DNA from: Acidimicrobiia bacterium
GTDB lineage: Bacteria; Actinomycetota; Acidimicrobiia; Acidimicrobiales; CATQHL01
DNA length: 64,000 nucleotides
Direction of reading: 5' to 3'
NCBI GenBank assembly: GCA_009835395.1
Contig: VXXM01000068.1
Span: forward strand, 1,494 to 65,493
The notes under the pieces are model-generated. The model did no database searches, was not told the origin of the DNA, and saw only the letters and a list, made by a program, of their open reading frames with translations. A program made the translations under genes and the position numbers. Positions 4,368-64,000 of this stretch are shown piece by piece (the first letter of the stretch is position 1; every line of letters begins with the position of its first letter).

Positions 4368-4985
4368 TCAGCTGCCGCTGACTGACGCCTCCAGATCCAG
4401 CAGCAGATCCTTGGCCGCGGTGCCGCCCCCGTAGGGTCCGCGACGGCCGTCGGCGCGGACGACCCGGTGGCAGGGCACCACCAGTGCAACCGGGTTGGTC
4501 GCCATGGCCGTGCCGACCGCCCGGGCGGCTCGGGGACTGCCGGCGCTCGCCGCCACGCCTGCGTAGCTGCGTGTCCGCCCGTAGGGAATGGCGGCTGTCA
4601 CCTCCAGCGCCCGGTGGTAGAAACCCGTGCTGTCGCGCCAGTCCACCTCCACGCTGAAGTCCCGCAGCCTGCCGGCGAAGTAGTCGTCGAGCTGCCGGCG
4701 CACGCCGTCCAGGGGCGCGGCGGCCACCGTCACTCGGGGTGACACCGTGGCGGCCATGGTGGCGGCCAACTCCTCGACGTCGCCGTCGGCGCGACCGGCG
4801 ACGCCGGGGGGCAGGAACGTGAGCCGTCGCAGTCCCGCCTCGGTGAGGGCCAGACCCAGGCGGCCCACAGGACTGTCGGTGTCCCACACCCAGACCGCCT
4901 CCGCGCCTGCTGTCCGGACCCCGTTACCTGAATCTGCTCCACCGATTGCTCGACGGGCTGCTCTTCGGTCCGCATCGTCAGTCAT
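4368..4985 (-). CDS. ogt: Methylated-DNA--protein-cysteine methyltransferase
   Basis: Active-site PCHRV motif (...NPVALVVPCHRVVRADG...) with a helix-turn-wing region (IPYGRTRSYAGVA). The start was set at the ATG at 4985 (MTDDADRR...). Confidence 0.9.
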   Translation of the reverse strand: MTDDADRRAARRAIGGADSGNGVRTAGAEAVWVWDTDSPVGRLGLALTEAGLRRLTFLPPGVAGRADGDVEELAATMAATVSPRVTVAAAPLDGVRRQLDDYFAGRLRDFSVEVDWRDSTGFYHRALEVTAAIPYGRTRSYAGVAASAGSPRAARAVGTAMATNPVALVVPCHRVVRADGRRGPYGGGTAAKDLLLDLEASVSGS

Positions 4986-5064
4986 GCGCCGACCATAGCC
5001 GGGCCGCGGTGACGGTCCTGCCGCGTGCGGGGAGCGCAGCGCCGGCAGGCGGCACGCGGCGCGG

Positions 5065-5562
5065 TCAGCCCCGCCGGGAGCCGCGCTGGACGGCGATGTC
5101 GGCAACCCAGCGACCGTCGGTTGCGACCCCGCTGAGGACCTCCGTCGCCGCCATCAGGAACCGCAGCACCTCGGCTGCGCCAACGCCGTCGGGCAGCTCG
5201 AACACGAGCCCTCGCCGGACGTGGTCCTGGCGCACCGTCCATGCCTGCGGCACGTGCACCCCGTTCTCAGCCAGCCGGCGCACCGCGAAGCGGCCGGTCG
5301 GGTGCGAGATGCCGATGGTGGCCCGCACGGTGCTGCGGCCGCGCCGGTGCTGCGGAACCCACGTGGCCTGGGGGATCTCCGGACCGCGCGCCGAGAACAT
5401 CCGCCCCAGCGGGGAGGTGGGCGGCCGGTCCTCGTCCTCCACCCAGGGCAGCAGGTTGAGCCAACCCCTGCCGTCGCCCCGCACGGCCAGGTCCTCCATG
5501 CACGAGAGAATCTCGACGGTGTCCTCGGAAGTGAACATGACACCGGTGTGGTCCACGGCCAT
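5065..5562 (-). CDS. Hypothetical protein (165 aa)
   Basis: ATG start and a non-overlapping fit between ogt and the divergent phosphatase gene. I recognise no motif. Confidence 0.55.
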   Translation of the reverse strand: MAVDHTGVMFTSEDTVEILSCMEDLAVRGDGRGWLNLLPWVEDEDRPPTSPLGRMFSARGPEIPQATWVPQHRRGRSTVRATIGISHPTGRFAVRRLAENGVHVPQAWTVRQDHVRRGLVFELPDGVGAAEVLRFLMAATEVLSGVATDGRWVADIAVQRGSRRG

Positions 5563-5655
5563 GGCGCGATGTTGTCACACGCGACTCCCGCGGCCTGCGT
5601 CACACCGCTGCTGCTCGGACCTGTCGGGGCGGACCGGCCGGTACCGTACGGTCAC

Positions 5656-6279
5656 GTGAAGCTGCTTCTGATCCGTCACGCCCTGCCCGAGCGGGTGGAG
5701 AACGCGGAGGGACCTGCCGATCCGGGCCTCACCGGCGTGGGGCGCGAGCAGGCGCGGCGCCTGGCGGCGTGGCTGGCCGCCGAAGAGATCGATCACGTCG
5801 CAGCCAGCCCCAAGCTCCGGGCGGTCGAGACGGCTGAGCCCCTGGCCATCCAGCGGGGTCTCGAGATCGAGACGGTGCAGGGCTTCGCCGAGATCGACAG
5901 CGGCAGCACCACCTACATCCCCTACGAGCAGATGCGGCGGGAGCGCCACGAGATCTGGCGCCACCTGCGCAGCGGGCGCTGGCAGGAGGCCGGATTCGCC
6001 GATCCGGAGCTCTTCCGCGACGACGTGGCGAAGACTTTCGCGGCCTGGGAGGCCGATCACACCGACCAGACCGTCGCGGTCGTCGCCCACAGCGGGACCA
6101 TCAACGCCCTCGTGAGCCACGTCCTGGGCATCGAGAACGTGTTCTTCTTCAGCTTGGAGTACACGGGCCTGTGCCGGCTGCGGCGCAACCTGCTGGGCGG
6201 CATGCATGTGACGTCGCTGAACGAGACCGCCCACCTGCACGCCGAGCGCGACAGCCTCGGCCCGCTGCCGCCGCCGTGA
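5656..6279 (+). CDS. Histidine phosphatase family protein (phosphoglycerate-mutase-like)
   Basis: Has the N-terminal catalytic RH motif (VKLLLIRHALPE) and a downstream AHSGTI motif. The start was set at the GTG at 5656. The upstream part of the 352-aa ORF overlaps the gene on the opposite strand. Confidence 0.85.
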   Translation: MKLLLIRHALPERVENAEGPADPGLTGVGREQARRLAAWLAAEEIDHVAASPKLRAVETAEPLAIQRGLEIETVQGFAEIDSGSTTYIPYEQMRRERHEIWRHLRSGRWQEAGFADPELFRDDVAKTFAAWEADHTDQTVAVVAHSGTINALVSHVLGIENVFFFSLEYTGLCRLRRNLLGGMHVTSLNETAHLHAERDSLGPLPPP

Positions 6280-52804: not shown

Positions 52805-53728
52805 GTGACTCTCGACATCCCGGCCCGCCTGCAGGCGTGGCGCGCCCTACCTCACATTTCCGCTCGGTCGGTGCTCGCCACGATCGCCGTCGACGCCTCC
52901 GCGCCGGTCATCGACCGGATCTGGCTGTCGCAGGTGATCGAACTCGGCGAGCCCTTCGGCTTCAACTCGCGCTTGGTCCGCACATCGCTGTTCAGATTGG
53001 TGCAGGAGGGCTTGATCGAGAACGAGCGAACGGGCCGCCGCAGCCGCTATCGACTCGCGCCCAGCAGAGAGAGGGAGTACGCCGAGGTCTCCGCTCGCCT
53101 CTACCGCCACAACGTGCCACCGCTCGATGCCGAGTGGACCCTGGTCCTGTTCGACAGCAGCCGCGTCGCAGCTCGCGACCGGGACCGACTGGCGAGCCAC
53201 CTCGGATTGGTGGTGCTCGAGCGCGGCGTGCTGGCCTCCCCGATCCGCAGCACCAGGGCCGTCCGGCGAGTCCTCGACGAGGCGTTCCCGAACATCCTCG
53301 CGGCAGTGGTGCGCGCCGAGTTCTCCGACGTCGCCGAACTCGCAAGCAAGGGATTCTTCTCCACGGCCTTCGCCTTCGAGAGCACGGAGCAGGCCTTCGG
53401 GGAGTTCGTCGAGAGCTACAGCGAATTCCGGGGGACGTGCGAGGAGTTGTCACCCGTGGACGCTTTCCGCGCTCGGACGATGCTGATACACGACCTGCGC
53501 CGCATCGCACTACCGATGCCGGCTCTTCCCCGGGAGTTGCTCCCGTCGCCTTGGTCGGGTGACGACGCCTACGACCTGGCGACCGAGCTCTACCCGCCGC
53601 TGTGCGCAAGAAGCGCAAGCCTGCTCGCGGATATCCTCGAAGTCGACTATCCGGAGGCCTTCCCGGATCGCTTCCCCGCCCGGATACCCCACGATGCCCA
53701 GGACTCGAGAGCTCTGATCAACGGATGA
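52805..53728 (+). CDS. PaaX-family transcriptional regulator
   Basis: N-terminal wHTH (...ARSVLATIAVD...LVRTSLFRLVQEGLIENERTGRRSRYRL) and PaaX_C-like C-terminal (...FRARTMLIHDLRRIAL..P.LPRELLP..W.G). Confidence 0.8.
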   Translation: MTLDIPARLQAWRALPHISARSVLATIAVDASAPVIDRIWLSQVIELGEPFGFNSRLVRTSLFRLVQEGLIENERTGRRSRYRLAPSREREYAEVSARLYRHNVPPLDAEWTLVLFDSSRVAARDRDRLASHLGLVVLERGVLASPIRSTRAVRRVLDEAFPNILAAVVRAEFSDVAELASKGFFSTAFAFESTEQAFGEFVESYSEFRGTCEELSPVDAFRARTMLIHDLRRIALPMPALPRELLPSPWSGDDAYDLATELYPPLCARSASLLADILEVDYPEAFPDRFPARIPHDAQDSRALING

Positions 53729-53775
53729 GGTTGGGGGCGGCGGGAGAGTGCATCGGGGCACGTAGCGGCCGGGAG

Positions 53776-54564
53776 ATGCCGATGACCGAAGACACCTCCG
53801 GCTGGCTCACCGAGCGTTACCTGCGCCTCCCCGACGGTTCGTTCCCGCATCTGGGCGTCCGCGACGGTGACGTGGCCGCTGTGGCGCTGCTCTCAGGCAG
53901 CCCGGAGCGGGTGGAGTTGATGGCGGGGATGCTCGACAACGCCGAGCAGGTGGGCGATCGCCGCGGCTACGCGGTGTTCACCGGCTCTTTGGGGGGCGCC
54001 GGCTTGAGCGTCGCCACCAGCGGCGTGGGGTCGCCGTCGATGGCGATCGCCGTCGAGGAACTGGCCGCCTGCGGCGCATCGTGCTTCATCCGGGTGGGGA
54101 GCTGCGCCGCGCTGTCGCCCCGCATGCCGGTCGGCGCGATCGCCGTGGCAACCGGCGCGGTCAGCGACGAGGGCACCAGCCGCTACTACGCGCCCGGGAA
54201 CTTCCCACCCGTCGCCTCGCATCGCGTGACCGCTGCGCTGGTCGCCGCCGCGGCACGCCGCGGCACGCCGGTGCAAGTGGGCCTGACCCGCTCAACGGAC
54301 AGCTTCTACGAGGGTGAGCGCACCACTGAGGTGATCCGGCGCTGGAAGGATCTCGGCGTGCTCGCCTTCGAGATGGAGACGTCCTGCCTGTTCACCGCTG
54401 CCGCGGCGCTGGGCTGCGAAGCCGGCTCGGTGCTGTGCGCCGGCTCCGATCTGCTCACCGGCGAAGCCACCTATCAGGGCGACCGGCTCGAGGAGTACGC
54501 AGCCGGCCAGCAGGCGATGCTGGAATTCGCCCTGGCCGCAGCCGCCGACCTCGCCCGATCCTGA
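53776..54564 (+). CDS. Nucleoside phosphorylase, PNP_UDP_1 family (paralog 1)
   Basis: Motifs ...LLSGSPERVELMA..., ...ATSGVGSPSMAIAVEELAACG...FIRVGSCAAL and ...LAFEMETSCLF.... The start is the ATG at 53776 or 53782, after GGGAG. Confidence 0.8.
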   Translation: MPMTEDTSGWLTERYLRLPDGSFPHLGVRDGDVAAVALLSGSPERVELMAGMLDNAEQVGDRRGYAVFTGSLGGAGLSVATSGVGSPSMAIAVEELAACGASCFIRVGSCAALSPRMPVGAIAVATGAVSDEGTSRYYAPGNFPPVASHRVTAALVAAAARRGTPVQVGLTRSTDSFYEGERTTEVIRRWKDLGVLAFEMETSCLFTAAAALGCEAGSVLCAGSDLLTGEATYQGDRLEEYAAGQQAMLEFALAAAADLARS

Positions 54565-54657
54565 GGACCGCAGCGACCGCCCCCGAGTCACCGCGGCCCG
54601 CTCACCGGAATCGGCTGCTCCCCTGTCCGGATCGACGCGCGACCGCCAAACATCTGC

Positions 54658-54687
54658 TTGACCGTATGACTTGATCTATGACAGAAT
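54658..54687 (+). promoter_or_regulatory. Candidate promoter TTGACC-18 nt-(TGa)CAGAAT ending 6 nt before the GTG at 54694 (leaderless candidate)
   Basis: Read directly in the lower-G+C spacer at 54640-54693. Confidence 0.35.
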
Positions 54688-54693
54688 CGCACC

Positions 54694-55866
54694 GTGCGAG
54701 GGGGACATCGCCGAGGGGGACACCGGCACGGCACGGAGCCGGCCGCTCCGATCAGGGTCAGCGATTCCAGCAGGGTGCCGCTGGCGACCCAGATCGCCCG
54801 GCAGTTCATGTGGCAGGTGGCCTCGGGCAGGATCGCCGCCGGCAGCAACCTCCCCGTGATCGCCGAACTGGCGACCGAACTCGGCGTCAGCGTTCACACG
54901 GTCCGGGCCGCCTACCGGCAGCTCGCCGACGACGGCATCGTGTCGATCAGCCGCGGCTCCCGCACGCGGGTGCTGGGCTACGACAGGGATCGCGCCTCGA
55001 TCGGCAACGACTCCCACCCGAGCTACAGCATCGGCGTGATGGTGCCCGCCTTCACGGACTACTACGCCCACTACCTCCAGGCCCTCAGTCAGGAGGCCGA
55101 ACTCGAGGGCTGGCTGCCGATCATCTGCCAGACGCAGCACTACGACGCGCAGGTCGTGTCACGTCACCTCGACCAACTGTTCAGCCGCAACGTGGACGGC
55201 GTGATCCTGATCCACTTCACCGCCGCCGGGGACGAGGCGGTCGTGGGTGTCGTCGAGTCCTCGTCGGCCCTCCGACCCTTCGTGTTCGTCGACAGCGCCA
55301 ACATCGGGACGGGGTCGCACATCCTGGCCGATCGCACTTCCGACGCCTACGAGGCGACGATGCATCTGGTCTCTCACGGCCACCGCCGGATCGCGCACAT
55401 CGCCTCGCCGGCGGACTCGGTCTCGAACCTCCTCGGCGCCGGTTACTCCCGGGCGCTGGCCGCCGCCGATCTCCAAGCCGATGACCAACTCGTCGCCGGC
55501 GTGGCGGACTTCTCGCTCGAAGCGGGGGCGAAGGCTGCAACGCAGTTGCTGCTTGCCGAGCAGCCCCCCACCGCCATCTTCTGTGCCGGTGACATCCTGG
55601 CTCTCGGCGCGATCTCCGCGATTCACGAGCGCGGCCTCCGCGTTCCACAGGACATCGCCGTGATGGGCTACGGGGAGATCCCGCTGGCCCGCCTGGCCGC
55701 CCCGTCGCTGTCAACGGTGCGGCTGCCGGCGGACGAACTCGGATTCGAAGCGATCCGCACGCTCCACCAGGTGCTCCAGCACGGGAAGCCCCAACCACCG
55801 GTGACGGTGGCGACCGCGCTCATCACCCGGGAGTCCTGCAGCTGCCCGACTCCTTCCGGCGGATGA
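54694..55866 (+). CDS. AraR-type regulator with a GntR-family wHTH fused to a LacI/PBP1-type sugar-binding domain
   Basis: The N-terminal GntR HTH reads LATQIARQFMWQVASGRIAAGSNLPVIAELATELGVSVHTVRAAYRQLADDGIVSISRGSRTRV. A Peripla_BP-like body follows (...IGVMVPAFTDYY..., ...PTAIFCAGDILALGAISAIHERGLRVPQDIAVMGYGEIP...). The start is uncertain; the alternative GTG is the Val codon of VPLATQ, about 26 codons downstream. Confidence 0.8.
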   Translation: MRGGHRRGGHRHGTEPAAPIRVSDSSRVPLATQIARQFMWQVASGRIAAGSNLPVIAELATELGVSVHTVRAAYRQLADDGIVSISRGSRTRVLGYDRDRASIGNDSHPSYSIGVMVPAFTDYYAHYLQALSQEAELEGWLPIICQTQHYDAQVVSRHLDQLFSRNVDGVILIHFTAAGDEAVVGVVESSSALRPFVFVDSANIGTGSHILADRTSDAYEATMHLVSHGHRRIAHIASPADSVSNLLGAGYSRALAAADLQADDQLVAGVADFSLEAGAKAATQLLLAEQPPTAIFCAGDILALGAISAIHERGLRVPQDIAVMGYGEIPLARLAAPSLSTVRLPADELGFEAIRTLHQVLQHGKPQPPVTVATALITRESCSCPTPSGG

Positions 55867-55912
55867 TCGCAAGAGACCTCGACGCACGATTCCACAACGA
55901 AAGGGGAAACAA

Positions 55913-57040
55913 ATGAGACGTGCAAAGTACTGGAGTCGCTGGCTGGCGCTGCTCCTCGCAGTGGCCGTCGTCGCGGCCGCCTGTGGCGGGGACGACGAGG
56001 ACACCGCGGCACCCCCGGCGCCTCCGCCGGCTGCCGAACCTCCGGCACCGGCGCCCGAACCCGCACCCGAACCGGCACCTGAGCCGCCGCCACCGCCCGA
56101 ACCGGCACCTGAGCCGCCGCCACCGCCGGAGCCGGCCCCCGAGCCGGTGTCGGTCTCGCTGCGACTCCCGTGGTTCCCGAACGTCCAGTTCACGGGCTCG
56201 TTCGTCGCTCAGGCGAAGGGCTTCTTCGCCGACGAGGGCCTTGACGTGACGATCAATCCGGGCGGATTCGACGTGAACAGCATCACGCTCGTGGCGGCCG
56301 GCTCGGACACGTTCGGACTCCACGACACCAATTCGCTGCTGTTCGCGGCCGCCGAGGACATCCCCCTCATCACCGTCGCCACCTACTTCCACAAGCACCC
56401 GGGGGGTGTGATGGCGCTCGCCGACTCCGGCATCGAGACCCTCGAGGACTTCGTGGGCCGGAGGATCGGCTTCGCAGAGGGCGGGCCGTGGCAGCTCACC
56501 CAGGCCATGCTGGCCAAGAACGGCATCGATGTGAACGACATCGAGCAGGTCACGGTCGGCTTCGACCTGAGTGCCATCCTGAACGGCGACATCGACCTGC
56601 AGACGGTGTTCTTCACCAACCAGCCGGTCCTTGCCGAGGGCGAGGGCTACGAGGTCAACGTGTTCGTCCCCTATGACTACGGGATCGAGACCTCGGCGAA
56701 CGCGCTGTTCACCACCAAGGACTACTTCGAGTCCAACCCCGAGGTGGCGTGCGCGATGGTCCGTGCCATCTCCCGCGGCTGGGAATACGCCTTCGAGAAC
56801 CCCGAGGAGGCGCTGGACATCGTCATCGCGGTCGACCCCGAGAACCTCGACCGGGACAAGGAGCGCCGCAGCCTCGAAGTCACGAAGACCGTCGTGCTGA
56901 CGCCCGACGCCGTCGCCGACGGCATCGGCTCGATGAAGCACAGCCGTTGGGAGACCGTCGACGAGGTGCTCCGCGAATACGGCGGCCTCGAGGCGGAGGT
57001 GGACCTCAACTCGGTCTACTCCGACGCGTGCTACTCGTGA
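55913..57040 (+). CDS. ABC transporter substrate-binding lipoprotein, NMT1/THI5 (ThiY/NitT-TauT) type
   Basis: Lipobox LLLAVAVVAAACGG, a long Pro/Ala/Glu linker, then an NMT1-like body (LRLPWFPNVQFTGSFVAQAKGFFADEGLDV...). RBS AAAGGGGAAAC. Confidence 0.85.
   Translation: MRRAKYWSRWLALLLAVAVVAAACGGDDEDTAAPPAPPPAAEPPAPAPEPAPEPAPEPPPPPEPAPEPPPPPEPAPEPVSVSLRLPWFPNVQFTGSFVAQAKGFFADEGLDVTINPGGFDVNSITLVAAGSDTFGLHDTNSLLFAAAEDIPLITVATYFHKHPGGVMALADSGIETLEDFVGRRIGFAEGGPWQLTQAMLAKNGIDVNDIEQVTVGFDLSAILNGDIDLQTVFFTNQPVLAEGEGYEVNVFVPYDYGIETSANALFTTKDYFESNPEVACAMVRAISRGWEYAFENPEEALDIVIAVDPENLDRDKERRSLEVTKTVVLTPDAVADGIGSMKHSRWETVDEVLREYGGLEAEVDLNSVYSDACYS
56069..56128 (+). repeat. Tandem 30-nt direct repeat (2 copies, 29/30 identical) encoding EPAPEPPPPP x2 in the lipoprotein linker
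   Basis: Read directly: gaaccggcacctgagccgccgccaccgccc / gaaccggcacctgagccgccgccaccgccg. Confidence 0.9.
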
Positions 57041-57109
57041 ATGGCATGATGCGATTCCCGCTGTAGAGCGACAATCGTTAACACGACCGCCCGCTGACGG
57101 AGGAGCGCG

Positions 57110-57892
57110 TTGGCAATATTCGACAAGGGCGCGACCACCCAGGACATACTCCAGTACCACTTGAGGGTCGGGCCCGGCGATGTCGCCGATTACGTGCTCC
57201 TCCCCGGCGACCCGGGGAGGGTGGCGCTGATCGCGGAACACCTCGACGACCCGCGTGAGGTCGCCGACCACCGCGAGTACCGGACGGTCACCGGCTCCTA
57301 CCGGGGCATTCCCGTCAGTGCCACCTCCACCGGGATCGGCTGCCCGTCGGCCGCCATCGCCGTGGAGGAGCTCTGCAATGTGGGGGTCTCGCACTTCATC
57401 CGGGTCGGGAGCAGCGCCGCCTTCGTGGAGGGAATCCACAAGGGCGACATCTTGATCAACACCGCCTCGATGCGCTGTGACGGCGCCAGCGCCATGTACG
57501 TGGACGACGGATTCCCGGCAGTCGCCGACCACTTCCTCGTGCGCGGCCTGATCGACGCGGCGGCGGATCTGGCCCCCGGCCGGGGTTTCGCCACCCACGT
57601 CGGCATCAACGTGTCGAGCGACGCCTTCTACGCCGAGACCCCCGAGTGGGTGGAGCGGATGATCGGCCAGAGGATCATGAACGTCGAGATGGAGTCCTCG
57701 GCGATCTTCACGATCGCGCACCTGCGCCAGGTGAAGGCGGCCATGGTCTGTGCGGTGTCCTACAACTTCACCGCACCGGCCGAGATCGACTACGAAGGTG
57801 TCAACGAGCCCCTGGTGGCCGGCTGGCACAACGCCATCGACGTGGCGCTCGAAGGGATACGGCGGTACGAGGCGACGAAGAGAACCGAGTGA
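57110..57892 (+). CDS. Uridine-phosphorylase-like nucleoside phosphorylase, PNP_UDP_1 family (paralog 2)
   Basis: Close to the Udp pattern: ...VLLPGDPGRVALIAEHLD...HREYRTVTGSYRGIPVSATSTGIGCPSAAIAVEELCNVGVSHFIRVGS...ASMRCDGAS...FPAVAD...NVEMESSAIF. The TTG start lies 4 nt after GGAGGAG. Confidence 0.85.
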   Translation: MAIFDKGATTQDILQYHLRVGPGDVADYVLLPGDPGRVALIAEHLDDPREVADHREYRTVTGSYRGIPVSATSTGIGCPSAAIAVEELCNVGVSHFIRVGSSAAFVEGIHKGDILINTASMRCDGASAMYVDDGFPAVADHFLVRGLIDAAADLAPGRGFATHVGINVSSDAFYAETPEWVERMIGQRIMNVEMESSAIFTIAHLRQVKAAMVCAVSYNFTAPAEIDYEGVNEPLVAGWHNAIDVALEGIRRYEATKRTE

Positions 57893-58728
57893 GCGAGGTA
57901 GGCCCGCCTGGAGGTGGAGGTCCCGAAGGGATCGTCGTCGACGGCATCACGATGCGGTTCGGCGGCCACGAGCCGATCACCGCGCTGGAGGATGTCAGCT
58001 TCGACATCGACGACGGCGAGTTCGTGGCCATCGTCGGTCCCTCGGGTTGCGGCAAGTCGACGCTCCTTCGCATCATCGCCGGCCTGCTGGAACCCACCGC
58101 CGGCTCGGTGACGGTGCGGGGAAAGACGCCGAGCGAGGCCCGGCGCGACGTGGAGTTCGGCTTCGTCTTCCAGAGTCCGGTGCTGTTCCCCTGGCTGCGA
58201 GTCCTGGGCAACGTGCTGCTGCCCGACCGGATCCTGGGCAAGCGCAACCCGCTGGCGGTGGCCGACGCCGAGAGGCACGCCCGCGGCCTGCTCCGGGACG
58301 TGGGCCTGGAGGGATTCGAGGAGTACTACCCCGAGCAGATCTCCGGCGGGATGCAGCAACGCGTGGCGCTCGCCCGGGCGCTCAGCTATGGCGCCTCGAC
58401 CCTGCTGATGGACGAGCCGTTCGGCGCGCTCGACGAATTCACCCGAGACAATCTGAACATCCAGCTTCTCGAGGTGTGGCAGCAGACCCGCTCGACGGTG
58501 CTGTTCGTGACCCACAGCCTGCAGGAGGCGATCTTCCTGTCCGACCGGGTGGTCGTGCTGAGCCCCCGGCCCGGCAGTGTCATGAGGATCGCCGACGTGC
58601 CGTTCGGCCGGCCGAGAGATCTCACGATCCGCTACCGCCCCGACTTCGCCGCGCTGAACGGCGAACTCCGGGAACTCCTGCAGATCGACGCGGGAGCCGC
58701 CGGCGACGGGGAGGTTGCGCCACCATGA
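57889..58728 (+). CDS. ABC transporter ATP-binding protein (NitT/TauT family)
   Basis: Walker A GPSGCGKST, Q-loop FVFQSP, signature ISGGMQQRVALARAL, Walker B LLMDEPFGALD. The GTG overlaps the upstream stop (GTGA). Confidence 0.92.
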   Translation: MSEVGPPGGGGPEGIVVDGITMRFGGHEPITALEDVSFDIDDGEFVAIVGPSGCGKSTLLRIIAGLLEPTAGSVTVRGKTPSEARRDVEFGFVFQSPVLFPWLRVLGNVLLPDRILGKRNPLAVADAERHARGLLRDVGLEGFEEYYPEQISGGMQQRVALARALSYGASTLLMDEPFGALDEFTRDNLNIQLLEVWQQTRSTVLFVTHSLQEAIFLSDRVVVLSPRPGSVMRIADVPFGRPRDLTIRYRPDFAALNGELRELLQIDAGAAGDGEVAPP

Positions 58729-59519
58729 CGGGCGCCGGCGCGGGCACCCGCCGTCGCTCGAAGTGGCGGACATACGTCCCCGCGATCCTGCTGTTCCTCG
58801 CCGCCCTCGGGATCTGGGAACTCTGGGTGGTGGCACGCGACGTGCCCACCTACCTCCTGCCCCGGGTGTCGGAGATCGGCATCGAGCTGGGCGAGCAGGG
58901 TTGGTCGCTGTTCCGCCACCTGCGCTGGACGATGCTCGAGGCGGTCCTGGGCTTCCTGGCGGGGAGCACCGCGGCGTTCCTGGCGGCGGTCATCTTCGTC
59001 CACATGCGTGCAGTCGAGGGAGCCCTGTTCCCGTGGGCGATCGTGCTGCAGACCATCCCGATCGTGGCCATCGCACCGCTGCTGACCATCTGGTTCGGCT
59101 TCACCCTGGTCCCGAAGGTGGTGATCGCGGCGATCATCTGCTTCTTCCCGGTACTGGTGAACACCGCGCGCGGCCTCAGATCCATCAGCGCGCAGGCCGT
59201 GGAGTTGATGAGCGTGCTATCCGCGCGCAAGACGGCGGTGTTCTGGCGTCTGCGGGTGCCGAGCTCGCTGCCGTACGTGTTCGCCGGGCTCCGCATCGCC
59301 TCCACGCTGGCGGTCATCGGCGCCATCGTGGCCGAGTTCACCGGGGCGGACCGCGGGATCGGGTTCGTGATCATCCAGGCCAGCTACCGCCTCGACACCA
59401 AGCGCCTCTTCGCCGGCCTGGTGCTCTCCTCAGCGGGCGGGATCGTGTTCTTCAATCTCATCGGCCTCCTCGAGCGGCTCACCGTCCGCTGGCCTGGAGC
59501 GCGCCTGCAGGAGTCCTGA
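58725..59519 (+). CDS. ABC transporter permease (NitT/TauT family)
   Basis: Six hydrophobic segments and an EAA-like loop (...ELMSVLSARKTAVFWRLRVPSSLPYVFAGLRIA...). The ATG overlaps the upstream stop (ATGA). Confidence 0.9.
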   Translation: MTGAGAGTRRRSKWRTYVPAILLFLAALGIWELWVVARDVPTYLLPRVSEIGIELGEQGWSLFRHLRWTMLEAVLGFLAGSTAAFLAAVIFVHMRAVEGALFPWAIVLQTIPIVAIAPLLTIWFGFTLVPKVVIAAIICFFPVLVNTARGLRSISAQAVELMSVLSARKTAVFWRLRVPSSLPYVFAGLRIASTLAVIGAIVAEFTGADRGIGFVIIQASYRLDTKRLFAGLVLSSAGGIVFFNLIGLLERLTVRWPGARLQES

Positions 59520-59676
59520 CCCGACGCCGGCGCGGTGGGCTCGGGCGGCACCCTCCTAGGATCTGTGCCCGATGCCGCGCGGTTTCCCATTCTGGGCGAT
59601 TCTGAGTTCCCTGTCCGGGCCGATCCGGGGCCCCCGCCTACCTCCGCCGGAGCCGAACCCACGCCGCACTGCGCCA

Positions 59677-60864
59677 GTGTTCGAACTCTCCGCGCGCGGC
59701 ATGACGAGCCGGCGGGCCGCCGATCTGGCGCCGAGCCTCATCCGGGACATCGCGAATGCCGGCATTGGACGAAGAGACGTCATCCCCCTCTGGTTCGGCG
59801 AGGGCTGCTGGCCGAGTCCAGACATCGCCGTCGAGGCCGCAAGGCGGGCACTCGCTGACGGAGATCACTTCTACCAGCCCAACAGCGGCAAGACGGAGTT
59901 GCGCGAGGAACTCAGCGCCTACCACCGGCGCATCTACGACGTCGAGATCGACCCCCGCCGCATCACGGTCACCGCGTCGGGCATGCAGGCCCTCGCCCTG
60001 GTCGCCCAGGCGCTCATTGATCCGGGCGACCGTGCCGTGATCATCGGCCCCGTCTGGCCCAACATCCGAGAGACGCTGCGCATCAGCGGGGCCTTCGTCA
60101 TCGAGCACGCCCTGCGCCCCGCCAGCGGTCGCTGGTCGCTCGACGTCGGGCGGCTCATCGACGACATCGGCGAGAACACCCGACTCGTCTTCATCAACAG
60201 CCCGGCCAACCCGACGGGCTGGACGGCCACCCCCGACGAACTGGACGCGGTCATCGAGCACTGCCGGCGCAACAAGGTCTGGCTGGTCGCCGACGACGCC
60301 TACTCGCGGCTCTGCTACGGCCGCCGGTACGCCCCCTGCGCCCTGACGCGCACCGAGCCCGACGACCTGGTCATCTCGGTGAGCACGTTCTCCAAGGCCT
60401 GGTCGATGACCGGCTGGCGCCTCGGCTGGATCACCGCACCGGCGGAACTCGAAGCCCCGCTGGCGATGCTCACCGAGTACAACATCGCCGGGGCGCCAGG
60501 GTTCGTGCAGGCCGCCGGCATCGCCGCGCTGAGGGACGGCGAACCCGACGTTGCGCTGCTGCAGCAGCGCCTGGCCGCTCTGAGGCCGCTGGCCGGCGAG
60601 CACCTCGCCGGCGTCCCCGGCGTCCGCTACCTCGAACCCGAGGGAGCCTTCTACAGCTTCTTCGGCGTCGACGGGATGACCGACAGCGTCGCCACGGCCA
60701 AGCACATCCTCGCCACCTGCGGCGTCGGCCTGGCACCCGGCCGGGCGTTCGGCCCCCACGGCGAGGGCCACCTCCGCCTCTGCTTCGCCCAACCCCCCGA
60801 GACCCTCACGACCGCCCTCGAACGCCTCGCCGACTACTTCGACGCCACCGCAGCCGGCGGCTGA
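59677..60864 (+). CDS. Class I/II pyridoxal-phosphate-dependent aminotransferase
   Basis: Motifs ...INSPANPTGW..., ...ADDAYSRL... and PLP-Lys STFSKAWSMTGWRLGW. The start is uncertain: the GTG at 59677 was chosen, while the ATG at 59572 would add a Pro-rich 35 aa. Confidence 0.85.
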   Translation: MFELSARGMTSRRAADLAPSLIRDIANAGIGRRDVIPLWFGEGCWPSPDIAVEAARRALADGDHFYQPNSGKTELREELSAYHRRIYDVEIDPRRITVTASGMQALALVAQALIDPGDRAVIIGPVWPNIRETLRISGAFVIEHALRPASGRWSLDVGRLIDDIGENTRLVFINSPANPTGWTATPDELDAVIEHCRRNKVWLVADDAYSRLCYGRRYAPCALTRTEPDDLVISVSTFSKAWSMTGWRLGWITAPAELEAPLAMLTEYNIAGAPGFVQAAGIAALRDGEPDVALLQQRLAALRPLAGEHLAGVPGVRYLEPEGAFYSFFGVDGMTDSVATAKHILATCGVGLAPGRAFGPHGEGHLRLCFAQPPETLTTALERLADYFDATAAGG

Positions 60865-61077
60865 GGGGCAGGTGCCTGAAGAGCCGACACTCCGGGCGGC
60901 TGCAGGCGGGGGTCTATGCCGCTTAGGCCTCCGCCTGGCTGCGCCGCCGGAGCCAGCGCACCACAGCGACCACGAGCGCGGTTATCGCCAGGAACTTCAC
61001 GACTCCAGTGTGCCACGGGCCGCCGCATCTTCCGGTGGCGCGCCGGGCACCTCGGCGAGCCCGGTAGGTTGCGGCCC

Positions 61078-61983
61078 ATGAGTATGGGCGACATCGACCT
61101 GGGGCCGATCGGCGTCTGGACCGGCATGCTCGACCAGTTGCCGTCGGCGCGTGCGGCCGAACTGGCCGCCGAGATCGAGGAGCTGGGCTACGGGGCGATC
61201 TGGATCCCCGAGGCCGTAGGGCGCGATCCGTTCGTGATGGCCACCCTGCTGCTGGCAGGCACGTCGTCGATCCCCGTCGCCACCGGCATCGCCAACATCT
61301 ACGCCCGCGACGCCATGACTATGGCCAACGCCCAGCGCACCGTCGACGAGGCGTTCGAGGGCCGCTTCCTGCTGGGTCTCGGCGTCAGCCACGCGCACCT
61401 GGTGGCGGGCCTGCGCAAGCACGACTACTCGCGCCCTCTCAGCTACATGCGCGAGTACCTGGAACGCATGCACAAGGCGGTGTTCTTCGCCCACGGGCCC
61501 GGGGAGCTGCCCGAGATGGTGCTCGCCGCGCTCGGGCCGAAGATGCTGCAATTGTCGGCCACGGCGACCGCCGGCGCGCACCCCTACTTCGTGCCTCCGG
61601 AGCACACCGCCCTCGCTCGGGAGACGATGGGGCCCGACGCGGCCCTGTATCCCGAGCAGATGGTCATCCTCGACACCGACCCCGACTCGGCCCGTGAGCT
61701 GGCGCGCAAGAACATGGCCATCTACCTCGGGCTGCCCAACTACGCCAACAACCTGCTGCGCCTCGGCTTCGAGCAGTCCGACATCGACGGTGGGCCCGGC
61801 GGCGGACCGTCGGACCGACTCGTCGACGCCATCGTCGTCTGGGGCACTCCGGAACAGATCGAAGCCCGCGTCCAGGAGCACCTCGACGCCGGCGCCGACC
61901 ACGTGGGCGTGCAGGTCCTCGCCGAGGATCCCGACACCACCGCCGAAGGCTGGAGGATCCTGGCCCCGGTACTGCTGGCCTGA
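61078..61983 (+). CDS. Luciferase-like monooxygenase (LLM) class, probably an F420-dependent oxidoreductase
   Basis: Motifs ...ELGYGAIWIPEAVGRDPF..., ...FLLGLGVSH... and ...ALGPKMLQLSATATAGAHPYF.... The start is the ATG at 61078. Confidence 0.8.
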   Translation: MSMGDIDLGPIGVWTGMLDQLPSARAAELAAEIEELGYGAIWIPEAVGRDPFVMATLLLAGTSSIPVATGIANIYARDAMTMANAQRTVDEAFEGRFLLGLGVSHAHLVAGLRKHDYSRPLSYMREYLERMHKAVFFAHGPGELPEMVLAALGPKMLQLSATATAGAHPYFVPPEHTALARETMGPDAALYPEQMVILDTDPDSARELARKNMAIYLGLPNYANNLLRLGFEQSDIDGGPGGGPSDRLVDAIVVWGTPEQIEARVQEHLDAGADHVGVQVLAEDPDTTAEGWRILAPVLLA

Positions 61984-62015
61984 CGCACCGCCGCAGCAGC
62001 CGGCGGCGGTCGCGG

Positions 62016-62810
62016 TCACCTCACGTTCTTCGTGTTCCTGCCGATGAGCCGGACCGCCCACCGCCGAGGCAAGAGGCGACCCGTGAGCACGGCGGTCATC
62101 CGGTTGACCACTCCCGGCACCAAGCGCGGTCCCCGACCGAGCCCGTCGAGTGTCCGGCGCGCCGCCTCATCGGGCGACAGCATGCCGGGCACGTCACGGT
62201 CGAAAGACCTGATGTAGCCCGGGGTGCGCATCGCCCCGGCACAGCAGGCGACGACCTCGACGCCGTGGGATCGAAGCTCGTACCAGAGACCCTCGGCGAG
62301 AATCGTGTTGAACGCCTTGCTGGCCGCGTAGACCGAGATGTAGGGCGTCCCCTGCAGGCCCGAGAGTGACGACATCAACACCACGGCACCCCTGCCCCTG
62401 GCGCACATGGCCGGTAACAGGGCCCGCAGCACCCGCAGCGGCCCGCGCACGTTGACGTCGACCACCCGTTCGATCTCCTCCTCGGGGGCCTCGGCGAAGG
62501 GGCCCACCGACGTGTACGCCGCGTTGTAGATGATGATCCCGAGATCCAGGTCGGCGACGGCGTCTGCCAGCGCCTCGGCGACCGTGGGGTCGGCCAGGTC
62601 CTCGACCAGGCAGCGAACCTCGACCTGGTGCTCGGTGGTGAGCTGCGCCTGGAGTTCGGCCAGCAGGTCGCCGCGGCGCGCGACCAACACCAGGTGCATG
62701 CCCCGTGAGGCGAGCTGGGCGGCGAACGCGGCGCCGAGCCCTTCGGAGGCGCCGGCGACCAGGGCCCAGCGGCCGTAGCGGTCCGGAAGGGCACGGGCAC
62801 GGGGCTTCAC
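62016..62810 (-). CDS. Short-chain dehydrogenase/reductase (classical SDR)
   Basis: Cofactor motif ALVAGASEGLGAAFA, NNAG-like IIYNAA, and catalytic S...YAASK. Confidence 0.9.
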   Translation of the reverse strand: MKPRARALPDRYGRWALVAGASEGLGAAFAAQLASRGMHLVLVARRGDLLAELQAQLTTEHQVEVRCLVEDLADPTVAEALADAVADLDLGIIIYNAAYTSVGPFAEAPEEEIERVVDVNVRGPLRVLRALLPAMCARGRGAVVLMSSLSGLQGTPYISVYAASKAFNTILAEGLWYELRSHGVEVVACCAGAMRTPGYIRSFDRDVPGMLSPDEAARRTLDGLGRGPRLVPGVVNRMTAVLTGRLLPRRWAVRLIGRNTKNVR

Positions 62811-62917
62811 GAGCTCTGCTCGCCGTGCGAATCGCTCACCACAGAACTAGGACTACCGCACGACGGCGCGGCGAACCAACCTGGGGATCCACGCCGACTC
62901 GTGGGAGACTCTGCGCC

Positions 62918-63466
62918 ATGTCACGCATCGAGGTCATTCCCGACGACTCCTGGGACGGCGCACTCGGTGAGATGCACCCCCGGGTCGTGGATCCCACCTA
63001 CGGCCGGGTCGACAACGTCCTGGCGGTGCATTCGCTGAACCCCCGGGGCATGGCGGCACACCTGGGCCTGTACGAGTCGGCCATGGCCGGCACGGCCACC
63101 TTGCGCAAGGTGGAGCGCGAGCTCATCGCCCTGGTCGTGAGCCTCGAGAACGACTGCCACTATTGAGTCGTCCACCACCGGCGCGGTCTGCGCCGGCTCA
63201 TCCACGACGACGAGCTCGTGGCGGAGGTGGAGGAGGACTGGCGGGCCGCCGGGTTGTCGCCGAAGCGGCTGGCGATGCTGGGCTACGCGGTCAAGTTGAC
63301 GAGGACGCCGGCGGCGGTGAGCGATGCCGACGTGGAGGCCCTGCGATCGGCCGGCTTCTCCGACCGTGACATCCTCGACATCGTCGAGGTGGTCGCCTAT
63401 TACGCCTACGCCAACCGCATCGCCGACGGTCTCGGCATCGAGACCGAGTCCTGGATCCCCGACTGA
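62918..63466 (+). CDS. AhpD/carboxymuconolactone-decarboxylase-family 'peroxidase-related' protein with in-frame TGA (63164-63166) read as selenocysteine (C-H-Y-U)
   Basis: ORFs 62705..63166 and 63218..63466 share one frame and are separated only by the TGA. The read-through product aligns as one ~182-aa family member, with the TGA at the second Cys of CxxC. A SECIS-like hairpin follows. The start is the ATG at 62918, after GGGAGA. Confidence 0.7.
63167..63211 (+). promoter_or_regulatory. Candidate bacterial SECIS element
   Basis: Lower stem GUCGUC (63167-72) / GACGAC (63206-11). Upper stem CCGGCGC (63178-84) / GCGCCGG (63190-96). Apical loop GGUCU (63185-89). The upper stem starts 11 nt after the UGA. 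Confidence 0.6.
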
Positions 63467-63554
63467 CCTCCCGGGGCTGGCGCCCTCGATCGGGTCGTGG
63501 GCGGGCCGTGTAGTGTCGGCGCGCAGACCGGTCTGCGGCTGAGGGGGGTGCCCC

Positions 63555-63992
63555 GTGTTCCGCCTGAAGGCTCTCGATCATGTGGTGCTGCGGGTGGCCG
63601 ACGTGGAGACCTGCCAGCGGTTCTACGAGGAGGTGCTCGGCTGCACCCTGGAGGCGGCCCGTCTCGAACTCGGCCTGTACCACCTGCGTGCCGGCAACTT
63701 CCTCATCGACCTGGTGGATGTGGCCGGCCCCCTCGGTGCCACCGGCGGTCCCCCGCCCGGCGCCACGGGGCACAACGTCGACCACGTCTGCATCCGGATC
63801 GAGCCCTTCGACGAGGACGAGGTCCGCCGGCACCTCGCCGCCCACGGCATCGAGACCGGCGACCTGGCCAACAACTGGGGCGCCGACGGTCGGGGGCCCT
63901 CGCTGTACATCCAGGACCCCGCAGGCAACACCATCGAACTCAAGGGTCCCCCGACCGAGCCCTACGACCCCGCCGCAGGCTTCATCCCGTAG
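63555..63992 (+). CDS. VOC-family (glyoxalase/bleomycin-resistance/dioxygenase) protein
   Basis: Motifs ...LDHVVLRVADVETCQRFYEEVLG..., ...VDHVCIRIE... and ...LYIQDPAGNTIEL. The GTG start follows GAGGGGGG. Confidence 0.85.
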   Translation: MFRLKALDHVVLRVADVETCQRFYEEVLGCTLEAARLELGLYHLRAGNFLIDLVDVAGPLGATGGPPPGATGHNVDHVCIRIEPFDEDEVRRHLAAHGIETGDLANNWGADGRGPSLYIQDPAGNTIELKGPPTEPYDPAAGFIP

Positions 63993-64000
63993 CCGCGGGC

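What the first reader, a model, noticed from the sequence alone, without database searches (positions are those of the whole stretch)
62918..63466. In-frame UGA at the CxxC cysteine of an AhpD/CMD-family gene plus a SECIS-like hairpin: probable selenoprotein split in two by the ORF track
Seen in the sequence:
- ORFs 62705..63166 and 63218..63466 are in the same frame (both start coordinates are 2 mod 3) and are separated only by TGA at 63164-63166.
- Read through, they form one ~182-aa protein: ...RELIALVVSLENDCHY[TGA]VVHHRRGLRRLIHDDELVAEVEEDWRAAGLSPKRLAMLGYAVKLTRTP...DILDIVEVVAYYAYANRIADGLG.
- That is the full architecture of the AhpD-core 'peroxidase-related' family. The TGA sits where the family carries the second Cys of its redox CxxC, giving C-H-Y-U here.
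- Eleven nt after the UGA begins a perfect 7-bp stem, CCGGCGC/GCGCCGG, with apical loop GGUCU.
- A 6-bp lower stem, GUCGUC/GACGAC, flanks it.

Established knowledge: the spacing, overall size and G-G-U-C loop resemble the E. coli fdhF SECIS. AhpD-like/CMD selenoproteins have been predicted in other bacteria by comparative genomics.

Inference: this is a Sec-decoding gene rather than a nonsense-mutated pseudogene. An automated annotation would miss it or call two fragments.
Basis: partly seen in the sequence, partly recalled or inferred. Interest (0 to 1): 0.85.

Follow-up and report, generated by a model that had tools for sequence, protein, structure and literature searches.

The report
AhpD-like selenoprotein gene with SECIS hairpin
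The in-frame TGA is almost certainly a real selenocysteine codon in a small antioxidant-type (AhpD-like) enzyme of a sponge-associated actinobacterium, but this selenoprotein family has been known since 2005, so the only new point is that public annotation splits this gene in two.

Summary
One reading frame runs from ATG 62918 to TGA 63464-63466 and is interrupted only by TGA 63164-63166. Eleven nt after that TGA comes a 7-bp hairpin with a GGUCU loop.

Read through, the 182-aa product is a TIGR01926 "peroxidase-related" AhpD-core protein. The TGA sits on the second Cys of E-x11-C-x-x-C-x3-H.

All 80 species-level Acidimicrobiia orthologues I fetched keep TGA at this codon. Downstream, synonymous sites are nearly frozen (GGT 83/84, CTG 84/84) and one stem pair covaries. 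The part after the TGA is under purifying selection.

Relatives carry tRNA-Sec, selA, selB and a Sec-containing selD within 0.1-8 kb of the gene. The source contig itself holds a second TGA-split redox gene (ResA-like WAxxUGC) with the same GGUCU loop.

Pseudogene, two-gene, sequencing-error and alternative-code readings are rejected.

However, the AhpD-like CxxU selenoprotein (COG2128/TIGR01926) was described in 2005 and is among the commonest marine selenoproteins. The sel genes of the source genome itself could not be scanned.

The parts
62903..62907 (+). Shine-Dalgarno-like GGGAG, 10 nt before the ATG
   Evidence: Read directly from the sequence. Homologues start at the equivalent M-[AS]-[RW]-I.
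62918..63466 (+). Complete AhpD-like (TIGR01926) selenoprotein gene: 182 codons including Sec83, plus the true stop TGA 63464-63466
   Evidence: GC3 is 0.94 upstream and 0.98 downstream of the internal TGA. dN/dS downstream of the TGA is 0.14-0.36 against 30 close relatives.
63119..63121 (+). Glu68 codon of the E-x11-C-x-x-U-x3-H AhpD-core motif
   Evidence: Invariant column E68 in alignment A1.
63155..63157 (+). Cys80 codon (TGC), first residue of the C-x-x-U redox pair
   Evidence: Invariant column C80. TGC/TGT in 84/84 orthologues.
63164..63166 (+). UGA read as selenocysteine (Sec83)
   Evidence: TGA in 84/84 distinct orthologous sequences from 80 species. It aligns with the second Cys of CxxC in Cys homologues and in PDB 3c1l/2pfx.
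63176..63178 (+). His87 codon of the AhpD-core motif
   Evidence: Invariant columns H86/H87.
63178..63196 (+). SECIS core hairpin: 5' arm 63178-63184, apical loop GGUCU 63185-63189, 3' arm 63190-63196. The loop begins 18 nt after the UGA.
   Evidence: MFE -14.0 kcal/mol, z -3.6. The six core pairs are 91-100% paired, and pair 30-42 covaries as GC61/GU12/CG4/AU3. Synonymous-site entropy falls to 0.00-0.56 bits at codons +5 to +8. All four bSECIS model criteria are met.
63167..63172 (+). 5' half of the lower stem (GUCGUC); weakly conserved
   Evidence: Pairs in the window. Only 68% of cells are paired across relatives, with some both-sided changes.
63206..63211 (+). 3' half of the lower stem (GACGAC); weakly conserved

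Best explanation
The region 62918-63466 is one gene for a 182-residue AhpD-like (CMD-fold, TIGR01926 'peroxidase-related') selenoprotein.

How decoding works: UGA at codon 83 is decoded as selenocysteine. The hairpin that starts 11 nt downstream (7-bp stem, GGUCU loop 18 nt after the UGA) is a canonical in-ORF bacterial SECIS. It would bind SelB·GTP·Sec-tRNA(Sec) and deliver it to the ribosome when the UGA is in the A site.

What the product does: it carries a Cys80-x-x-Sec83 redox pair inside the AhpD-core motif Glu68-x11-Cys-x-x-Sec-x3-His87. Sec replaces the second Cys, which is the nucleophile in M. tuberculosis AhpD (my own knowledge). The enzyme most likely cycles between selenol/thiol and selenenylsulfide. 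In doing so it would reduce hydroperoxides or re-reduce an oxidised peroxiredoxin-type partner.

Shown: the gene structure, family membership, Sec/Cys column, SECIS conservation and covariation, purifying selection downstream, Sec machinery in relatives, and a second selenoprotein gene on the source contig.

Inferred: actual Sec insertion, SelB binding, and the biochemical substrate.
For: - Family: TIGR01926 at 144.1 bits (cutoff 81.8), Pfam CMD. PDB homologues 3c1l, 2pfx, 2oyo, 6k40 and 2prr match at E 2e-31 to 2e-21.
- Column: the TGA aligns with the second CxxC Cys.
- Conservation: 80 of 80 species-level Acidimicrobiia loci have TGA at this codon.
- Synonymous constraint is confined to the hairpin. 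Gly+7 is GGT in 83/84 sequences, whereas another Gly column reads GGC50/GGT13/GGG10/GGA9. Leu+8 is CTG in 84/84.
- Covariation: compensatory CGG/CGC to CGC/CGG and CGA/CGT changes occur at pair 30-42.
- bSECIS criteria: loop 5 nt, stem 7 bp, GGU in the loop, spacing 18 nt, MFE -14 kcal/mol.
- Cys forms: L087 and L090 (TGC) have lost the hairpin, with z +0.5 and +0.6.
- Translation downstream: dN/dS after the TGA is 0.14-0.36 at dS 0.3-1.1.
- tRNA-Sec in L072 and L076, found by ARAGORN; the L072 copy was also confirmed by Rfam RF01852 at 66 bits.
- selA and selB in L072 score 380 and 301 bits, both above cutoff. selA in L074 starts about 55-75 nt after the gene.
- selD in L047 carries an in-frame TGA.
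- A second selenoprotein gene (WSSW[TGA]GC, NF041054 at 265 bits) with a GGUCU-loop hairpin lies on the source contig.
- TGA is the normal stop in 25 of 31 well-supported genes of the window.
Against: - No sel gene or tRNA-Sec lies in the 64-kb window. The rest of the source genome could not be scanned.
- The sel genes were seen only in relatives at 66-71% protein identity, not in the sponge-symbiont clade closest to the window.
- In the single sequence, most of the hairpin follows from the RRGLRR peptide in CGN codons.
- No Rfam family matches the hairpin.
- No expression, proteomic or selenium-labelling data exist.
- Single relatives carry TGG (L092) or TTA (L091) at the codon with the hairpin intact.
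Confidence: 0.93

Rival explanations
1. Pseudogene: a nonsense mutation has inactivated an ordinary CxxC AhpD-like gene.
For: Gene callers end the product at the TGA. Variants with internal deletions of the middle (P0015, P0028) exist in related genomes.
Against: TGA is present at exactly this codon in 80/80 species and 84/84 distinct sequences. There is no other disruption. dN/dS downstream is 0.14-0.36 and GC3 is 0.98. RNA-level constraint and covariation occur just after the codon.
Confidence: 0.01
2. Two separate small genes: an 82-aa N-terminal protein, and a C-terminal protein started at an internal GTG (63218 or 63227).
For: This is how public annotation reads it. In many relatives the codon right after the TGA is GTG, so callers produce 100-aa 'M[TV]HHRRG...' products.
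Against: The split would cut the E-x11-C-x-x-C-x3-H active site between Cys80 and His87. In the window the codon after the TGA is GTC, and the first in-frame start lies 17 codons later. Yet those 17 codons, including the invariant HH, are conserved at protein level. Cys homologues are single 182-193-aa proteins.
Confidence: 0.02
3. Read-through without selenocysteine: the hairpin stimulates near-cognate decoding of UGA (Trp, Cys or Arg), or the organism uses a code in which TGA is a sense codon.
For: One metagenomic relative has TGG (L092) and one has TTA (L091), both with the hairpin intact. JGI callers translated the codon as Trp.
Against: TGA ends 25 of 31 well-supported genes in the window, including this one. 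The JGI 'W' proteins that were checked are TGA read under an alternative code. The column is the catalytic Cys. The hairpin meets the bSECIS model with a GGU loop at 18 nt. tRNA-Sec, selA, selB and selD lie beside the orthologues. A second known-family selenoprotein gene on the same contig has the same loop.
Confidence: 0.03
4. Sequencing or assembly error: the codon is really TGC or TGT.
For: None found.
Against: An identical TGA occurs in four independent assemblies from different samples (L003-L006) and in all 80 related species. The 82-aa fragment is deposited under three GenBank protein accessions.
Confidence: 0.005

Closest known systems
AhpD-like selenoprotein family ('AhpD-like 1', COG2128 / TIGR01926, CxxU): Zhang et al. 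2005 (PMC1088965), Zhang & Gladyshev 2008 (PMC2398784), 2026 review (PMC13188914)
   Same: Same HMM family, same CxxU position, and the same in-ORF hairpin with G in a small apical loop. The family had 27 sequences in the Sargasso Sea and 299 in GOS.
   Different: Nothing material. This copy comes from a sponge-associated Acidimicrobiia population and is deposited as two 'peroxidase' fragments.
Mycobacterium tuberculosis AhpD (TIGR00777; Cys130-x-x-Cys133)
   Same: AhpD-core motif E-x11-C-x-x-C-x3-H. The second position of the pair is the nucleophile (my own knowledge).
   Different: It uses Cys, not Sec. The window protein scores 17.8 bits against a cutoff of 192 for TIGR00777, so it belongs to a different subfamily. 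No AhpC partner gene is adjacent.
Escherichia coli fdhF SECIS and the bSECIS consensus model
   Same: Hairpin inside the ORF. The loop starts 18 nt after the UGA and reads GGUC(U). My recollection of fdhF gives the same 18-nt spacing and GGUCUGC string. All four consensus criteria are met.
   Different: The stem sequence differs. The loop is 5 nt closed by C-G, and no bulged U is evident. No Rfam model detects it.
Solved Cys homologues: PDB 3c1l (Mlr4105), 2pfx, 2oyo, 6k40 (AhpD), 2prr
   Same: Matches at E 2e-31 to 2e-21 over about 147 residues. Their CxxC aligns with C80/U83.
   Different: All have Cys at the second position. They lack the HH-RRGLRR segment that encodes the hairpin (for example 'AHGAAVRQL').
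NF041238 AhpD_rel_CFYUT ('hypothetical protein 1' of the Sargasso Sea) and NF053654 YciW-related (seleno)protein
   Same: AhpD-related, with CxxU.
   Different: Weak partial matches only: 38.8 bits against a cutoff of 175, and 15.7 against 310. These are other families.

Membership tests
AhpD-like selenoprotein (TIGR01926 peroxidase-related enzyme, CxxU) | Whole-protein HMM score above the curated cutoff | tested here: met
   144.1 bits against 81.8, covering residues 24-175 of 182. Pfam CMD at 49.8 bits against 23.
AhpD-like selenoprotein (TIGR01926 peroxidase-related enzyme, CxxU) | AhpD-core motif E-x11-C-x-x-[C/U]-x3-H | tested here: met
   E68, C80, U83 and H87. Columns E68, C80, H86 and H87 are invariant in A1.
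AhpD-like selenoprotein (TIGR01926 peroxidase-related enzyme, CxxU) | In-frame UGA aligned with the second Cys of Cys-containing homologues | tested here: met
   Alignment A1 with P0007-P0011, P0014-P0017 and P0026. PDB alignments to 3c1l and 2pfx.
AhpD-like selenoprotein (TIGR01926 peroxidase-related enzyme, CxxU) | UGA conserved in orthologues, with the downstream part under purifying selection | tested here: met
   80/80 species have TGA. dN/dS is 0.14-0.36.
AhpD-like selenoprotein (TIGR01926 peroxidase-related enzyme, CxxU) | All-helical CMD/AhpD fold | tested here: inconclusive
   Shown only through sequence homology to solved structures.
Bacterial SECIS (bSECIS consensus model, PMC13188914 Fig. 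2A) | Apical loop of 3-9 nt and upper stem of 4-16 bp | tested here: met
   5-nt loop and 7-bp stem, of which 6 bp are conserved.
Bacterial SECIS (bSECIS consensus model, PMC13188914 Fig. 2A) | G in the first two loop positions, usually followed by G or U | tested here: met
   The loop is GGUCU. GG, C and the final U are invariant, and the middle U is kept in 84 of 85 aligned sequences.
Bacterial SECIS (bSECIS consensus model, PMC13188914 Fig. 2A) | 16-37 nt between the UGA and the apical loop | tested here: met
   18 nt (63167-63184).
Bacterial SECIS (bSECIS consensus model, PMC13188914 Fig. 2A) | MFE of -7.5 kcal/mol or lower | tested here: met
   -14.0 kcal/mol for the 19-nt hairpin.
Bacterial SECIS (bSECIS consensus model, PMC13188914 Fig. 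2A) | Binds SelB and is required for UGA recoding | not testable with these tools
   Needs a binding or reporter assay.
Sec-decoding trait (selA, selB, selC, selD) | Machinery genes present in the source genome | not testable with these tools
   None lie in the window or in the 9 kb beyond it. Indirect support comes from a second selenoprotein gene on the same contig.
Sec-decoding trait (selA, selB, selC, selD) | Machinery genes present in genomes that carry the TGA orthologue | tested here: met
   tRNA-Sec in L072 and L076. selA and selB in L072 and L076, and selA in L074; the L072 and L074 copies were scored against NCBIfam models. selD in L047.
Canonical AhpD (TIGR00777) | HMM score above the cutoff | tested here: not met
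   17.8 bits against 191.95.

The most novel reading that the evidence does not exclude
In Acidimicrobiia this AhpD-like gene may be the 'anchor' selenoprotein that keeps the Sec trait in place.
- It is present with UGA in every one of the 80 closest species.
- It sits beside selC, selA/selB or selD in several genomes.
- Its SECIS has dictated the protein sequence. The HH-RRGLRR peptide exists only in the UGA clade and in a few close Cys forms. Those Cys forms would then be recent Sec-to-Cys reversions carrying a decaying 'fossil' SECIS.
Probability: 0.35. Interest if true: 0.35.

Novelty: already known. Interest (0 to 1): 0.22.

Why it matters
- Annotation: the gene should be recorded as one 182-aa selenoprotein. 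GenBank currently holds it as two 'peroxidase' fragments (MXV91047.1/MYI18931.1 plus MYI18932.1). Hundreds of orthologues in public protein sets are likewise stored as about 82-aa or about 100-aa halves.
- Biology: together with the neighbouring WAxxUGC gene, it shows that this sponge-associated Acidimicrobiia population uses selenocysteine in thiol-redox defence.
- Limits: it does not open a new question. The family, the motif and the SECIS type have been described before.

Tried and rejected
- Rfam, at gathering threshold on the whole window and at E up to 10 on 63100-63300, gave no SECIS or other meaningful match. Bacterial SECIS elements are poorly covered there.
- The promoter and terminator scan of 62700-63700 found nothing.
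- No tRNA lies in the window. tblastn with E. coli SelD, SelA and SelB found none in the window or in the 30 sponge-clade loci. I recalled those three query sequences from memory and validated them at 619, 632 and 921 bits.
- The metagenome scan seeded with Cys forms returned only 2 loci, so the Cys-form comparison rests on three sequences.
- The SelD homologue search returned over 8000 hits with only the top 120 listed and almost no organism names. It could not be tied to the source MAG.
- Trp at the column (P0001, P0003-P0006) was considered as evidence for UGA-to-Trp decoding and rejected. P0003 and P0004 are TGA translated under another code, and only P0001 is a true TGG.
- Gene neighbourhood is not conserved among relatives, so it gives no functional clue.
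- I could not walk further along the source contig, because look-ups are limited to window proteins.

Full report
**Observation.** The sequence is as described. ORFs 62705..63166 and 63218..63466 share a frame and are separated only by TGA 63164-63166. The biologically sensible start is ATG 62918, with GGGAG 10 nt upstream. This gives 182 codons and a true stop at 63464-63466. Eleven nt after the internal TGA lies CCGGCGC / GGTCT / GCGCCGG (63178-63196), flanked by GTCGTC (63167-63172) and GACGAC (63206-63211). A scan of all in-frame TGAs in the window for a coding signature on both sides returned this site (GC3 0.94 and 0.98) and one other. The other looks like two abutting genes.

**Identity of the protein.** With Cys substituted for the TGA, the protein scores 144.1 bits on NCBIfam TIGR01926 'peroxidase-related enzyme' (cutoff 81.8). 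It also matches Pfam CMD and the AhpD-core domain TIGR00778. It is not canonical AhpD: TIGR00777 scores 17.8 bits against a cutoff of 192. Solved homologues (3c1l, 2pfx, 2oyo, 6k40, 2prr) match at E 2e-31 to 2e-21. Their CxxC aligns with C80 and the TGA column. In an alignment with Cys-containing homologues the TGA column is the second Cys. E68, C80, H86 and H87 are invariant, giving E-x11-C-x-x-U-x3-H.

**Comparative evidence for the codon.**
- A protein search returned hundreds of half-length products, either ending ...CHY or starting M[TV]HHRRGLRRL. This is the signature of a gene split at one fixed codon.
- A scan of one genome per species found more than 560 related loci. The best 80 are all Acidimicrobiia at 62-85% identity, and all have TGA at this codon.
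- In the 30 closest species (sponge-symbiont genera such as Ca. Poriferisodalis, Aldehydirespirator and Spongiisocius), the part downstream of the TGA has dN/dS 0.14-0.36 at dS 0.3-1.1. It is therefore translated.
- The TGA is identical in four independent assemblies of the source population.

**The hairpin.**
- In the 85-sequence alignment A2, the six core pairs are 91-100% paired. Pair 30-42 covaries as GC61/GU12/CG4/AU3, for example CGG...CGC changing to CGC...CGG or CGA...CGT. The closing pair tolerates C-G to U-G.
- The strongest signal is synonymous-site freezing. Third-position entropy falls to 0.56, 0.28, 0.09 and 0.00 bits at codons +5 to +8. Other conserved four- and six-fold degenerate codons in the gene mostly run at about 1.2-1.9 bits. 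Gly+7 is GGT in 83/84 sequences, while another conserved Gly uses GGC50/GGT13/GGG10/GGA9. Leu+8 is CTG in 84/84.
- The element meets the published bacterial SECIS model: loop of 3-9 nt, stem of 4-16 bp, G in the first two loop positions followed by G or U, spacing of 16-37 nt, and MFE of -7.5 or lower. Here these are 5 nt, 7 bp, GGU, 18 nt and -14.0 kcal/mol.
- From memory, E. coli fdhF also places GGUCUGC 18 nt after its UGA.

**A caveat and a corollary.** RRGLRR written in CGN codons yields four of the six pairs automatically, so the hairpin in one sequence is weak evidence. But that peptide is confined to the UGA clade and its nearest Cys forms. More distant Cys homologues read HHAEALKAY or AHGAAVRQL. 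Of three close TGC forms, two have lost the fold: L087 reads CGT CGG GGC CTG CGC CGA and L090 has CGG for the second Arg, with z +0.5 and +0.6. One form, L089, still has it. This fits RNA-driven constraint in the Sec forms and decay after Sec-to-Cys replacement.

**Sec machinery.**
- The window has no tRNA and no sel gene.
- L072 and L076 carry tRNA-Sec 8 kb upstream of the orthologue, found by ARAGORN; the L072 copy also scores 66 bits on Rfam RF01852 against a cutoff of 47. Both loci carry selA-selB about 6 kb downstream. The L072 copies score 380 bits on TIGR00474 and 301 bits on TIGR00475, both above cutoff.
- In L074, selA begins about 55-75 nt after the gene.
- In L047, a selD with its own in-frame TGA (HGAG[TGA]GCK) lies 4.3 kb upstream.
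- A 2026 preprint reports universal Sec machinery in another Acidimicrobiia order.

**Evidence from the source contig itself.** L003 is the ENA contig that matches window 52918-64000 at 99.90% identity. About 4.8 kb past the window's end it carries a second TGA-split gene, L003 15103-16257 (-), with the context ...FTWSSW[TGA]GCRISLPVWQ.... This gene matches Pfam AhpC-TSA/Redoxin. It also matches NCBIfam NF041054 'ResA-like WAxxUGC motif-containing protein' at 265 bits, E 8e-79, just under the 300 cutoff. Its hairpin is CCUGCC-GGUCU-GGCAGG, with the loop starting 20 nt after the UGA, and the loop is the same as in the AhpD-like gene. A homologue in L086 keeps the TGA. Two independent redox genes with the same SECIS loop within 6 kb make a functional Sec system in this organism very likely. 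The sel genes themselves were not seen.

**Rival readings.**
- Pseudogene, two-gene and sequencing-error readings are excluded by the conservation, the selection and the multiple assemblies.
- A reassigned code is excluded because TGA terminates 25 of 31 well-supported genes here.
- The 'W' in some database homologues comes from callers that read TGA as Trp. One relative has a true TGG and one has TTA, both with intact hairpins. These are isolated exceptions.

**Novelty.** The AhpD-like CxxU selenoprotein (COG2128) was described from the Sargasso Sea in 2005 with its SECIS. It was the fourth most abundant prokaryotic selenoprotein family in GOS, with 299 sequences. A 2026 review lists it as TIGR01926, CxxU. 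This gene is an orthodox member of that family. What is wrong is the annotation: GenBank holds the halves as 'peroxidase' entries MXV91047.1/MYC44622.1/MYI18931.1 (82 aa) and MYI18932.1.

**Limits.** There is no direct scan of the source genome for sel genes, no experimental evidence of Sec insertion, and no known substrate.

Noticed in passing
L003 15103-16257 (-); about 4.8 kb beyond the window's end (would be window ~68,020-69,174): A second TGA-split redox gene lies on the source contig: ...FTWSSW[TGA]GCR..., AhpC-TSA/Redoxin, NF041054 'ResA-like WAxxUGC' at 265 bits (cutoff 300). Its hairpin CCUGCC-GGUCU-GGCAGG starts its loop 20 nt after the UGA, and the loop matches the AhpD-like SECIS. 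Gene callers split it into 138 aa plus 220 aa. A homologue in L086 (162-989, -) keeps the TGA.
   Followed up: yes
L072 2236-2331 (-) and ~16.5-19.6 kb (+); L076 1908-2003 (-) and ~17.1-20 kb (+); L074 1265-2308 (+): In three Acidimicrobiia genomes the AhpD-like selenoprotein gene is linked to Sec machinery. In L072 and L076, tRNA-Sec lies 8 kb upstream and selA-selB 6 kb downstream. In L074, selA lies directly downstream on the same strand.
   Followed up: yes
L047 ~4760-5710 (+): A selD gene with an in-frame TGA at the active-site position (HGAG[TGA]GCK) lies 4.3 kb upstream of the AhpD-like gene. The reading frame shifts several times in this long-read MAG, probably through assembly indels. 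About 316-aa N-terminally truncated SelD products dominate the database hits, which suggests that Sec-SelD is common in this clade.
   Followed up: partly
L089, L090, L087 (Cys forms P0009, P0010, P0007): Close TGC homologues keep the RRGLRR peptide but show the hairpin intact (L089) or decayed (L087, L090). They look like recent Sec-to-Cys replacements with a fossil SECIS. Only three sequences were available.
   Followed up: partly
L091 3247 (TTA) and L092 701 (TGG): Two metagenomic relatives have Leu (TTA) or Trp (TGG) at the Sec codon with an intact hairpin. L091 even carries a compensatory U-A pair. These are either recent inactivating point changes or sequencing errors.
   Followed up: partly
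L093 272-829, L094 306-941 (JGI proteins P0004, P0003): JGI gene calls give Trp at the Sec position because the contigs were translated with a TGA=Trp code. P0003 also runs through its real TGA stop. This annotation artefact creates false full-length 'CxxW' proteins.
   Followed up: yes
L032 2442-3013 and 9982-10552; L033 10111-10562 and 16697-17145: Two sponge-clade genomes carry two copies of the gene, 97-98% identical at nucleotide level and 6.6-7.5 kb apart. Both copies have TGA and the hairpin.
   Followed up: partly
Proteins P0015 (Ca. Poriferisodalis sp., 112 aa) and P0028 (153 aa): These variants of the gene have an internal in-frame deletion that removes the middle of the protein, including the CxxU site and the SECIS. 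They are probably degenerate paralogues. Their DNA was not examined.
   Followed up: no
window 63522-63537: A perfect 16-nt palindrome, CGCAGACCGGTCTGCG, sits in the 88-nt spacer between the selenoprotein gene and the downstream glyoxalase-family gene (63555-63992). There is no T-tract, so it is not called as a terminator. It shares GGTCTGCG with the SECIS loop and 3' arm.
   Followed up: no
window 5577 (-): This is the only other TGA in the window with a coding signature on both sides. The context ...GSRV*QHRAMAVDH... suggests two same-frame adjacent genes rather than recoding.
   Followed up: no
window 52918-64000 vs L003 1-11083: The window is not identical to the public contig. There are 11 mismatches in 11,083 nt (99.90%). 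Over the aminotransferase gene (59572-60849) the tblastn protein match was 97.7% identical, while the selenoprotein gene is identical. The window therefore comes from a strain-level variant of the same population.
   Followed up: partly
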